From: a virus
Taxonomy: Monodnaviria; Loebvirae; Hofneiviricota; Faserviricetes; Tubulavirales; Inoviridae
Direction: 5' to 3' (one strand)
Length of the DNA: 8,367 bases
Virus record (IMG/VR): IMGVR_UViG_2675903352_000001
Shown here: one piece after another, positions 7,542 to 7,678 of the stretch
Numbering within the stretch: position 1 is the first letter of the stretch
How the letters are laid out: every line of letters begins with the position of its first letter
The notes under the pieces: model-generated
Told to the model about the DNA's origin: nothing
The model's input: the letters and a program-made list of their open reading frames with translations, nothing else
Database searches by the model: none
Position numbers and translations under genes: made by a program

Positions 7542-7678
7542 GTTTGCACCGCAATATATTTACCGCATGCGCGCATCACAATCACATTTAACACGTGCTG
7601 TAAATACGCATGCGCTATGCGGGTGTAAAAAAAATGGAATAATCACCTTCTATTGAAAGGACATAGAGGTAAATTTTG
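7542..7678. promoter_or_regulatory. Divergent intergenic control region: candidate promoters, palindromic operators and possible origin/attP-like hairpins
   Basis: Contains the 10-bp palindrome ATGCGCGCAT (7567-7576), CGCATGCG (7607-7614), CACGTG (7592-7597), ATTTAACA (7587-7594, identical to the first 8 nt of the reverse-complemented dif XerD arm) and an A-rich tract. Lies between the leftward phage operon and the rightward regulator gene. Confidence 0.45.

What the first reader, a model, noticed from the sequence alone, without database searches (positions are those of the whole stretch)
7542..7678. Control region with nested palindromes and a dif-arm-like motif: candidate operator, origin or attP
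Between the divergent regulator and the phage operon lie ATGCGCGCAT (7567-7576), CGCATGCG (7607-7614), CACGTG (7592-7597) and ATTTAACA (7587-7594). The segment CCGCATGCGCGCAT can pair imperfectly with ATGCGCTATGCGG about 30 nt away, so single-stranded DNA could fold into a hairpin. The ATTTAACA motif matches the start of the reverse-complemented XerD arm but the rest does not form a canonical site. Which of these is operator, nicking origin or Xer substrate cannot be decided by eye.
Basis: partly seen in the sequence, partly recalled or inferred. Interest (0 to 1): 0.55.

Follow-up and report, generated by a model that had tools for sequence, protein, structure and literature searches.

The report
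Filamentous prophage repressor operator-promoter region
This 137-base gap is most likely the on/off switch of a cholera-phage-like filamentous prophage (back-to-back promoters plus repeated CGCATGCG boxes for its small RstR-like repressor), not a replication origin or an integration site, so it is ordinary in kind even though I found no description of this operator.

Summary
The motifs are real; ATTTAACA lies at 7586-7593, one base off. The window is a dif-integrated, CTXphi-like filamentous prophage. Region 7542-7678 corresponds to CTXphi "ig-2": the gap between the rep operon (- strand) and a divergent 70-aa regulator that is 68-70% identical to the "environmental RstR" of CTXphi/pre-CTX and VAI phages.

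Two exact CGCATGCGC boxes (7564-7572, 7607-7615), a degenerate third box (7592-7598) and the flanking TATTTAC/GTAAATA recur in phages of Vibrio, Shewanella, Aeromonas, Xenorhabdus and Arsenophonus that carry this regulator. They do so whichever of at least four Rep types sits next door. Conserved promoter elements fit around the boxes.

The dif-arm 8-mer is chance: it appears in 33% of shuffles and is not conserved. The hairpin is no stronger than shuffles (z -0.8 to -2.2). The real dif is at 415-442. In the 96%-identical E. coli E24377A prophage the folded attP lies where the window's right end would continue. The candidate RstA-type ori(+) hairpin is at 7977-8000.

Verdict: an operator/promoter (immunity) region and a new member of a known kind. 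Binding is inferred, not shown. One oddity: a 7-bp patch (7592-7598) holds 6 of the 11 variable positions found across 26 otherwise near-identical copies of the cassette.

The parts
7542..7678 (.). Intergenic control region between the phage rep operon (- strand) and the divergent regulator (+ strand). Counterpart of CTXphi ig-2.
   Evidence: ORF map. Regulator homology to RstR alleles. Alignment of the region with relatives.
7564..7572 (.). Box 1: CGCATGCGC, containing the 8-bp palindrome at 7564-7571. Candidate operator lying over the predicted start site of the leftward promoter.
   Evidence: Exact 9-nt repeat of box 3. Only two exact CGCATGCG in the window. Conserved as YGCATGCR/CCATGCRC in relatives.
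7592..7598 (.). Box 2, degenerate (CACGTGC here; GCATGY in distant relatives). It is a hypervariable patch inside the promoter spacer.
   Evidence: Eight haplotypes in 26 near-identical cassette copies. Six of the 11 variable positions in 7527-7891 fall here, and all changes are transitions.
7607..7622 (.). Box 3 (CGCATGCGC, 7607-7615) plus the adjoining half-box TATGCGG. Candidate operator between the two promoters' -35 regions.
   Evidence: The 16-mer TGTAAATACGCATGCG is identical in the window, an IMG/VR phage (L018), Xenorhabdus and Arsenophonus. Nine of its 11 hits in the viral contig collection are related inoviruses.
7557..7563 (.). TATTTAC, the left flank of box 1. It is the inverted partner of GTAAATA at 7600-7606.
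   Evidence: Inverted repeat I4, arms 7557-7567 and 7596-7606, 91% complementary. Conserved in L018, L045, L002 and L004.
7575..7604 (-). Predicted leftward promoter for the rep operon. -35 TTTACA (7604-7599), 18-nt spacer, -10 TGTGAT (7580-7575). All 25 other copies read TATGAT at the -10. Predicted start near 7568.
   Evidence: TTTACA-18-TATCAT/TATTAT/TAGTAT scores 9-10 of 12 at the same position in L018, L045, L002, L004, L008 and L009. 7579 is C only in the window. A consensus match only; no start site has been mapped.
7553..7581 (-). Alternative leftward promoter-like site: TTGTGA-17-TATATT.
   Evidence: Promoter scan, 9 of 12 matches. The window-specific 7579C creates the TTGTGA. Not seen at this strength in relatives.
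7635..7643 (+). Predicted extended -10 (TGgAATAAT) of the regulator's own promoter.
   Evidence: The -10 hexamer starts exactly 30 nt after the C of box 3's CATG in the window, L018, L045, L004 and L002 (read from the sequences).
7679..7891 (+). 70-aa RstR-like regulator (PHROG family phrog_2503). No Pfam domain; fold not assigned.
   Evidence: 68-70% identity to CTXphi/pre-CTX 'environmental RstR' and to the VAI1/VAI2 RstR-like protein. phrog_2503, E 1.5e-27. N-terminal R-x-DTTVRINE-x-RK nearly invariant. At least 198 homologues, none with a Pfam domain.
7498..7901 (.). Exchangeable immunity cassette: the first 15 codons of the 65-aa ORF, the control region and the regulator gene.
   Evidence: 97.5% identical in L027 and L030, where every other neighbour differs, including the Rep, which there is a 700-aa replication endonuclease.
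7344..7541 (-). 65-aa first ORF of the leftward operon (phrog_3104, function unknown).
6148..7374 (-). Rep_trans / RstA-type replication initiator.
   Evidence: Pfam PF02486, E 1.6e-21. 33% identity to pre-CTX RstA, E 5e-60.
7977..8000 (+). Hairpin ACCCCCG-TGTTACAAGA-CGGGGGT. Candidate ori(+) nick hairpin of the RstA-type Rep. This, not the finding, is the likely origin.
   Evidence: Present in every sufficiently long locus with an RstA-type Rep homologous to the window's, including CTXphi (L007) and VAI2 (L008). Absent where the Rep is a different type. In CTXphi, RstA nicks between G and T in the apical loop of an ori(+) hairpin next to rstR (PMC4439123).
415..442 (-). dif site (AGTGCGCATAATGTATATTATGTTAAAT) marking the prophage's left junction.
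   Evidence: 27 of 28 matches to E. coli dif, with 0 of 200 shuffles matching. Similarity to E. coli prophages begins at 415/441.

Best explanation
Region 7542-7678 is the immunity/control region of a CTXphi-like filamentous prophage, the counterpart of CTXphi ig-2.

Promoters. It holds two back-to-back promoters.
- The leftward one drives the 65-aa ORF, rep, ssb and the structural operon. Its -35 is TTTACA (7604-7599). Its -10 is at 7580-7575, and the predicted start is near 7568.
- The rightward one drives the 70-aa regulator, through an extended -10, TGgAATAAT, at 7635-7643.

Boxes. The promoters are interleaved with CATG-centred boxes.
- Box 1 (7564-7572) covers the leftward start site.
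- Box 3 (7607-7615, plus a half-box to 7622) lies about 40 bp upstream of both starts.
- A degenerate box 2 (7592-7598) lies in the leftward spacer.

Mechanism. I infer that the small RstR-like regulator binds these boxes as an oligomer, probably through its invariant N-terminal segment R-x-DTTVRIN. Boxes 1 and 3 are 43 bp apart, about four helical turns. Binding would shut off rep-operon transcription and so give lysogeny and superinfection immunity. It would also modulate the regulator's own promoter.

Shown here: the position, the homology of the regulator, the conservation and cassette behaviour of the DNA, and the covariation of box sequence with the regulator's N-terminus.

Inferred: the binding itself, the promoter start sites and the direction of regulation.
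For: 1. Architecture. The operon on the - strand runs Rep_trans Rep, ssb-like protein, coat, g3p-like protein, Zot, secretin. A small divergent regulator is on the + strand. dif lies at the prophage edge.

2. Regulator homology. It is 67.9-69.6% identical to the CTXphi/pre-CTX 'environmental RstR' and to the VAI1/VAI2 RstR-like protein.

3. Published precedent. RstR alleles repress the rstA promoter by acting on their own ig-2. Eight alleles were tested with lux reporters. One of them, rstR-6, has a gene 3' end that closely resembles that of the pre-CTX allele homologous to this regulator, judging from the published reverse-primer sequence (PMC11509585).

4. Conservation. The block 7553-7615 is kept in Vibrio, an IMG/VR phage (L018), metagenomic, Xenorhabdus, Arsenophonus, Aeromonas and Shewanella relatives. 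The DNA on the regulator-proximal side of that block is much less conserved.

5. Cassette behaviour. 7498-7901 is 97.5% identical in L027 and L030 beside a different 700-aa Rep. The boxes occur with Rep_trans, Rep700, Phage_CRI and a Xenorhabdus/Arsenophonus-type Rep.

6. Covariation between the regulator's N-terminus and the box:
- DTT(V)R(I/V) regulators go with YGCATGCR boxes.
- DTTIAIN regulators go with TTACATGTAA boxes, in two hosts.
- A paralogue with KAIAITE goes with TGTTAACAG boxes.

7. Promoter elements sit at fixed positions in relatives.

8. Statistics. The joint excess of palindromes and direct repeat occurred in 3 of 5000 shuffles.
Against: - No binding, footprint or start-site data exist for this regulator type. 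I found none in the papers searched.
- The regulator has no Pfam or PDB match. AlphaFold monomer models (pLDDT 71 and 77) gave no significant fold match, so its DNA-binding mode is unknown.
- Part of the conserved sequence (TGTAAA, ATGATA) could be conserved simply as -35 and -10 elements.
- In this particular copy the conserved -10 is spoiled: TGTGAT in place of TATGAT.
- Relatives L041-L044 carry a 92%-identical regulator with none of these boxes nearby.
Confidence: 0.8

Rival explanations
1. The inverted repeats work as a hairpin in the single-stranded phage genome, for example as a minus-strand origin, a packaging signal or a single-strand promoter.
For: The box 1 and box 3 arms pair in the predicted ssDNA folds. 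Some relatives fold better than shuffles: L018, z -2.3 and -3.5; L045, z -2.8 and -3.3.
Against: - In the window z is only -0.9 to -2.2.
- Xenorhabdus, pre-CTX and Aeromonas relatives show no excess folding (z 0 to -1.2), and Arsenophonus is marginal (z -0.6 and -1.7).
- Where both strands were folded they fold about equally well, as expected of a duplex binding site rather than a strand-specific signal.
- What is conserved is sequence (the CATG cores), not pairing. In Vibrio phages the flanks form direct repeats, not inverted ones.
- For comparison, the attP hairpin of the same phage type has z -9.7.
Confidence: 0.07
2. The boxes are bound by a host factor or another phage protein. The 70-aa protein acts elsewhere or is not a DNA-binding repressor.
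For: The regulator's fold is unassigned. The YpfPhi promoter region is bound by the host regulator RovA (PMC4266046).
Against: The boxes follow the regulator across hosts as different as Vibrio, Shewanella, Xenorhabdus and Escherichia. They change when the regulator's N-terminal segment changes. No LexA box is present.
Confidence: 0.07
3. The region is the plus-strand replication origin, nicked by the Rep_trans protein.
For: GC-rich palindromes lie next to the rep operon, and rolling-circle origins often contain hairpins.
Against: - The identical region sits next to a 700-aa replication endonuclease in L027, L030 and L036. Its relatives sit next to Phage_CRI and other Reps.
- The hairpin CCCCCG-N10-CGGGGG at 7978-7999 tracks the RstA-type Rep and is shared with CTXphi, whose ori(+) lies beside rstR.
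Confidence: 0.03
4. The region is an attP or other XerCD substrate.
For: ATTTAACA equals 8 of the 11 bases of the reverse-complemented XerD arm.
Against: - Matches of this size occur in 33% of shuffles.
- There is no XerC arm at a usable spacing (read).
- The motif changes to ATTTAATG in close relatives. Distant relatives have unrelated AT-rich sequence at this position.
- The true dif is at 415-442.
- The two inverted dif-like sites that fold into a CTXphi-type attP lie just past the small ORF that ends the window. This is seen in E24377A and also in L027 and L031.
Confidence: 0.01

Closest known systems
CTXphi ig-2: the rstA promoter (PrstA) with RstR operators, i.e. the immunity region of the RS2 module
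   Same: - Same position, between a divergent repressor gene and rstA-type rep.
- The regulator is homologous to a CTXphi/pre-CTX rstR allele.
- The unit is exchanged as a repressor-plus-operator cassette that defines immunity type.
- ori(+) and attP lie on the far side of the repressor gene.
   Different: - The well-studied El Tor and classical RstR proteins are about 112 aa (339- and 336-bp genes); from memory they are helix-turn-helix proteins with unrelated operators.
- This regulator is a 70-aa protein with no recognised domain, and its CGCATGCG-type boxes have not been described as far as I could find.
- No LexA box is present here. CTXphi RstA production is under SOS control (PMC4439123).
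VAI1/VAI2 phages of Vibrio anguillarum and pre-CTX carrying the 'environmental' rstR
   Same: The same regulator family (about 68-70% identity), and the same box and promoter layout in ig-2.
   Different: - Those phages have RstA directly after ig-2; here a 65-aa ORF precedes Rep.
- Their box flanks form direct repeats (ATATTGCATGC); here they form the TATTTAC/GTAAATA inverted pair.
- The published work only notes putative sigma-70 promoters in ig-2 (PMC7412436).
YpfPhi / CUS-1, dif-integrated filamentous prophages of Yersinia pestis and E. coli
   Same: Enterobacterial host, dif integration with inverted Xer sites, tandem arrays, a divergent RstR-like gene, and an intergenic region thought to start transcription (PMC4266046).
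   Different: I did not compare YpfPhi or CUS-1 sequences directly. E. coli prophages that match only about 60-66% of this window are annotated with other replication proteins and a helix-turn-helix protein.
Lambdoid immunity regions (OR/OL) and the Pf4 repressor C region
   Same: Repressor, repeated operators and divergent promoters form one exchangeable immunity unit. From memory, operator-region mutations yield virulent or superinfective variants.
   Different: Unrelated proteins and sequences. This is an analogy only.

Membership tests
CTXphi-type ig-2 immunity region (repressor operator plus rep-operon promoter) | Lies between a divergently transcribed repressor gene and the replication operon of an integrative filamentous phage. 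| tested here: met
   ORF map and Pfam. dif at the prophage edge.
CTXphi-type ig-2 immunity region (repressor operator plus rep-operon promoter) | The adjacent regulator is an RstR homologue. | tested here: met
   67.9-69.6% identity to rstR of GQ466611, KR063268 and VAI1/2.
CTXphi-type ig-2 immunity region (repressor operator plus rep-operon promoter) | Repeated operator sequences overlap promoter elements and are conserved with the regulator. | tested here: met
   Boxes 1-3 and promoter hexamers are conserved in relatives. The boxes change with the regulator's N-terminal segment. This is sequence-level evidence only.
CTXphi-type ig-2 immunity region (repressor operator plus rep-operon promoter) | Regulator and operator are exchanged together, independently of Rep. 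| tested here: met
   Cassette 7498-7901 sits beside a different Rep in L027, L030 and L036.
CTXphi-type ig-2 immunity region (repressor operator plus rep-operon promoter) | The repressor binds the region and represses the rep promoter. | not testable with these tools
   Needs gel-shift, footprint or reporter assays. Shown only for other rstR alleles (PMC11509585).
XerCD recombination site (dif/attP) | An 11-bp XerC arm, a 6-8 bp centre and an 11-bp XerD arm; or two inverted such sites that fold into one. | tested here: not met
   Only 8 of 11 bases of one arm match, at chance level. No dif-like match in the region with up to 3 mismatches.
XerCD recombination site (dif/attP) | Conserved in related integrating phages and located at the prophage junction. 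| tested here: not met
   The motif varies in close relatives. The real sites are at 415-442 and beyond the right end of the window.
Rolling-circle ori(+) of an RstA/Rep_trans initiator | Co-inherited with its cognate Rep. | tested here: not met
   The region occurs with at least four Rep types. The hairpin at 7977-8000 is the element that tracks the RstA-type Rep.
Ff-type single-strand hairpin signal (minus-strand origin or packaging signal) | A stable, strand-specific hairpin that is conserved as a structure. | tested here: not met
   z is -0.8 to -2.2 here, both strands fold alike, and several relatives show no excess folding.
Ribbon-helix-helix repressors (Arc/MetJ/CopG type), considered for the regulator | Sequence or structure match to a ribbon-helix-helix domain. 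| tested here: inconclusive
   - No Pfam or PDB sequence hit; one member matched ParG at E 0.025.
- hhalign against CopG gave probability 0.6%.
- A dimer model could not be run.

The most novel reading that the evidence does not exclude
The 7-bp patch 7592-7598 may be under diversifying selection. It is box 2, and it lies in the spacer of the rep-operon promoter next to the -35.

Across 26 copies of the cassette, most from different genomes or samples (five are tandem copies within one E. coli strain), it shows 8 haplotypes. All changes are transitions, so the purine-pyrimidine alternation is kept. The adjoining regulator gene (213 bp) has no substitutions at all, although rep differs by 2-7 per 100 nt between the window and one of these phages (L031).

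This would fit an arms race in which operator variants tune repression by the shared repressor or escape it, as operator mutations do in virulent or superinfective phage variants. Alternatively the patch is a local mutational hotspot.
Probability: 0.2. Interest if true: 0.5.

Novelty: new member of a known kind. Interest (0 to 1): 0.3.

Why it matters
It gives a testable operator and promoter map for a widespread but uncharacterised family of small filamentous-phage repressors. The family has at least 198 proteins, no Pfam domain, and is PHROG family phrog_2503. It includes an rstR allele of CTXphi/pre-CTX that I did not find among the alleles tested experimentally.

Knowing the boxes allows immunity groups of dif-integrated prophages to be predicted in E. 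coli, Salmonella, Vibrio and their relatives. It also separates the three cis elements of this phage type: the operator region, the ori(+) hairpin and the folded attP.

This is ordinary biology of a known kind, not a new mechanism.

Tried and rejected
- **attP/Xer reading:** rejected by shuffle statistics, lack of conservation and the location of the true sites.
- **Origin reading:** rejected because the region occurs with several Rep families. A Rep-linked hairpin exists elsewhere.
- **Hairpin reading:** tested by folding both strands of the window and eight relatives. Weak and inconsistent.
- **LexA/SOS box:** none found.
- **Known RNA families:** no Rfam match in the control region. The only match in 7300-8367 was a sub-threshold one at 7961-8007 (18.5 bits against a cutoff of 50).
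- **Phage collection, whole window:** megablast found nothing.
- **Which named rstR allele this is:** I tried to match it using the primers in PMC11509585. No primer matches its start. Only the rstR-6 reverse primer resembles its 3' end. The likely candidates, rstR-4 and rstR-4**, were not in that paper's reporter assays and I could not check their sequences.
- **16-mer TGTAAATACGCATGCG in viral contigs:** 9 of 11 hits are related inoviruses and 2 look unrelated.

Full report
**Context**

The window is an integrated filamentous prophage. On the - strand lie:
- a secretin (912-2131),
- Zot (2436-3410),
- a g3p-like protein (3780-5150),
- a coat protein,
- an ssb-like ORF (5803-6144),
- a Rep_trans initiator (6148-7374; PF02486, E 1.6e-21),
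- a 65-aa ORF (7344-7541).

A 70-aa ORF (7679-7891) is transcribed divergently on the + strand.

A dif site with one mismatch lies at 415-442 on the - strand. No shuffle of the window produced such a match. Similarity to E. coli prophages starts exactly there.

In E. coli E24377A the same prophage, about 96% identical, sits at the chromosomal dif locus between a fimbrial gene remnant and hipA. In strain 503025 it forms a tandem array of five copies.

**The observation**

The four motifs exist.

With 7607-7615 it forms an exact 9-nt direct repeat 43 nt apart. TATTTAC (7557-7563) and GTAAATA (7600-7606) form an inverted pair.

In 5000 dinucleotide-preserving shuffles, the number of palindromes and the direct repeat were jointly matched 3 times. 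A single 10-bp palindrome is unremarkable. An 8-mer of dif appears in 33% of shuffles.

The suggested hairpin does form in silico but is not clearly better than shuffles. z is -0.93 and -2.20 for the 137 nt, and -0.81 and -1.55 for 7555-7625.

**Identity of the regulator**

The 70-aa protein has no Pfam domain. It belongs to phrog_2503.

By tblastn it is 67.9-69.6% identical to:
- the rstR gene of some CTXphi and pre-CTX records, annotated 'environmental RstR; cryptic phage CTXphi transcriptional repressor';
- the RstR-like protein of Vibrio anguillarum phages VAI1 and VAI2.

A profile search found at least 198 homologues, none with a Pfam domain. The source names listed include Vibrio, Shewanella, Aeromonas, Pseudoalteromonas, Photobacterium, Salmonella, Citrobacter, Providencia, Xenorhabdus, Photorhabdus and Arsenophonus.

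The N-terminal segment R-x-DTTVRINE-x-RK is almost invariant among the closer members.

In CTXphi, RstR alleles repress the rstA promoter through their own ig-2. This was shown with reporters for eight alleles (PMC11509585). One of those, rstR-6, has a reverse primer that closely resembles the gene 3' end of the pre-CTX allele homologous to this regulator. The window's region is therefore the positional counterpart of ig-2.

**Conservation of the DNA**

I took the DNA from the start codon of the divergent gene to the start codon of the regulator and compared it across relatives:
- pre-CTX,
- VAI2,
- an IMG/VR phage whose regulator is 80% identical,
- metagenomic phages (76% identical),
- Xenorhabdus,
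- Arsenophonus,
- Aeromonas,
- Shewanella.

All share one ordered block:
- TATTTAC, then a CATGCRYGCAT box (box 1);
- an AT-rich stretch;
- a GCATGY box (box 2), followed directly by TAAATA;
- a YGCATGCR box (box 3).

The DNA between box 3 and the regulator's start codon is much less conserved.

The 16-mer TGTAAATACGCATGCG is identical in the window, the IMG/VR phage (L018), Xenorhabdus and Arsenophonus. Nine of its eleven exact hits in the viral contig collection are related inoviruses.

**Cassette behaviour**

Segment 7498-7901 is 97.5% identical in L027 and L030. There everything else differs, including the replication protein, which is a 700-aa replication endonuclease in place of Rep_trans.

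Other phages share 5799-8005, that is ssb, rep, the control region, the regulator and a downstream hairpin.

Relatives of the regulator, with their boxes, also sit next to Phage_CRI-type initiators and a Xenorhabdus/Arsenophonus-type Rep.

The control region therefore travels with the regulator, not with Rep. That is expected of an operator and argues against an origin.

**Covariation**

- Regulators with DTT(V)R(I/V) have YGCATGCR boxes.
- Regulators with DTTIAIN, in Thalassotalea and Pseudoalteromonas, have TTACATGTAA boxes.
- A 60-aa paralogue with KAIAITE, in L041-L044, has two TGTTAACAG boxes at the equivalent place.

This link between the N-terminal segment and the box flanks is the best indirect evidence that the protein reads the boxes.

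**Promoters**

The standard scan finds a - strand site, TTGTGA-17-TATATT, at 7581-7553.

A scan of the relatives shows a better-conserved leftward promoter. Its -35 is TTTACA, the reverse complement of the conserved TGTAAA, here at 7604-7599. After an 18-nt spacer comes a -10 of TATCAT, TATTAT or TAGTAT. It scores 9-10 of 12 in six lineages.

In the window the -10 reads TGTGAT (7580-7575) because position 7579 is C. All 25 other copies have T, giving TATGAT. The predicted start near 7568 lies inside box 1.

The regulator's promoter has an extended -10, TGgAATAAT, at 7635-7643. Its hexamer starts exactly 30 nt after the C of box 3's CATG in the window, L018, L045, L004 and L002 (read).

Box 3 is therefore centred about 40 bp upstream of both predicted starts, and box 1 lies on the leftward start. 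These are consensus-based inferences.

**Where the origin and attP are**

The hairpin ACCCCCG-N10-CGGGGGT at 7977-8000 was flagged as terminator-like. It occurs in every sufficiently long locus with an RstA-type Rep homologous to the window's, including CTXphi itself and VAI2, always on the far side of the regulator gene. It is absent where the Rep is of another type.

The T-run after it is not conserved, but the G-T step at the start of its loop is. In CTXphi, RstA nicks between G and T in the apical loop of a hairpin of the 167-bp ori(+) next to rstR (PMC4439123).

I infer that 7977-8000 is the homologous origin hairpin. I could not see that paper's figure to confirm it is the same hairpin.

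Just past the small ORF that ends the window, E24377A has two inverted dif-like sites around a GC-rich stem. As a single strand they fold at -37.5 kcal/mol, z -9.7. L027, L031 and L026 show the same or a similar sequence. This is the CTXphi-type folded attP, in the position described for CTXphi and proposed for YpfPhi (PMC4246890; PMC4266046).

**The regulator's fold**

A ribbon-helix-helix-like reading is my hypothesis, with the conserved N-terminal strand pairing in a dimer. It is not supported by any search.

**An unexplained detail**

In 26 copies of 7527-7891 there are 11 variable positions. All lie in 7543-7608, and six lie in 7592-7598. The copies come from E. coli genomes, IMG/VR and metagenomes, and five of them are tandem copies in one strain.

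That patch has eight haplotypes: CACGTGC, CACGTGT, CACGTAT, CGCGTGT, TGCGTGT, TGCGTGC, TGTGTGT and TGCGCGT. All substitutions are transitions.

The 213-bp regulator gene is invariant, while rep differs by 2-7 per 100 nt between the window and L031. By my own rough calculation, six of eleven variable sites falling in some 7-bp span of 365 bp has a probability of about 1e-5.

The patch may be a mutational hotspot, a relaxed stretch of spacer, or a site under diversifying selection. I cannot tell which.

**Verdict**

The finding is a real, conserved control region: an ig-2-type divergent promoter/operator unit for a small RstR-like repressor. It is neither the origin nor a Xer site. It is a new, uncharacterised member of a well-known kind. 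Binding and start sites remain to be shown.

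Noticed in passing
window 7592-7598: A hypervariable 7-bp patch: 8 haplotypes, transitions only, in 26 cassette copies whose regulator gene (213 bp) is invariant. It holds 6 of the 11 variable positions in 7527-7891.
   Followed up: partly
window 7579: C is unique to this copy; the 25 other copies have T. It changes the conserved leftward -10 from TATGAT to TGTGAT, losing the key A at position -11. At the same time it creates a TTGTGA -35 for a promoter-like site 22 bp downstream.
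   Followed up: partly
window 7977-8000: The hairpin ACCCCCG-TGTTACAAGA-CGGGGGT is shared with CTXphi, VAI2 and the other loci with an RstA-type Rep homologous to the window's that extend far enough. It is the likely ori(+) nick hairpin rather than just a terminator. Pyrimidine-rich tracts follow it here (8074-8106) and in VAI2.
   Followed up: partly
L001 14196-14305 (E. coli E24377A, just beyond the equivalent of the window's right end): Two inverted dif-like sites flank a GC-rich stem. As ssDNA they fold at -37.5 kcal/mol (z -9.7), which makes this a CTXphi-type folded attP. The window stops just short of it.
   Followed up: yes
window 415-442 and 1-414: A dif site with one mismatch marks the prophage's left edge. 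The flank 1-414 carries a Phd/YefM antitoxin gene (1-222, - strand) and does not match the E. coli dif neighbourhood. The host may therefore not be a typical E. coli; a 99%-identical regulator is named from Escherichia albertii.
   Followed up: partly
window ~1352-1358 and ~2451-2458: Compared with E24377A, the secretin and zot genes each change reading frame. Either this copy is defective or the assembly has indel errors.
   Followed up: partly
L041-L044 (metagenome contigs), e.g. L041 1133-1713: A phage with the 700-aa Rep has a 60-aa paralogous regulator with its own TGTTAACAG boxes. Behind it sits a 92%-identical 'orphan' copy of the window's regulator with no CGCATGCG boxes nearby. The orphan might confer immunity against phages of the window's type.
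   Followed up: no
L023 2483-2674 (phage If1, U02303, 'major intergenic region'): A complete, unannotated 63-aa ORF (MATPKRTTMAIVAERK...DIVNHLIDNY...) is homologous to this regulator family. It lies in a phage regarded as non-integrating.
   Followed up: no
L049 (E. coli strain 503025, NZ_CP025892): Five tandem copies of the prophage at dif. Some copies have split zot or coat genes.
   Followed up: no
window 8194-8367: A 57-aa predicted membrane ORF (MNNWSEIILDLLMKH...) lies between the ori-like region and the expected attP. Divergent versions occupy the same slot in L027 and L031. Function unknown.
   Followed up: no
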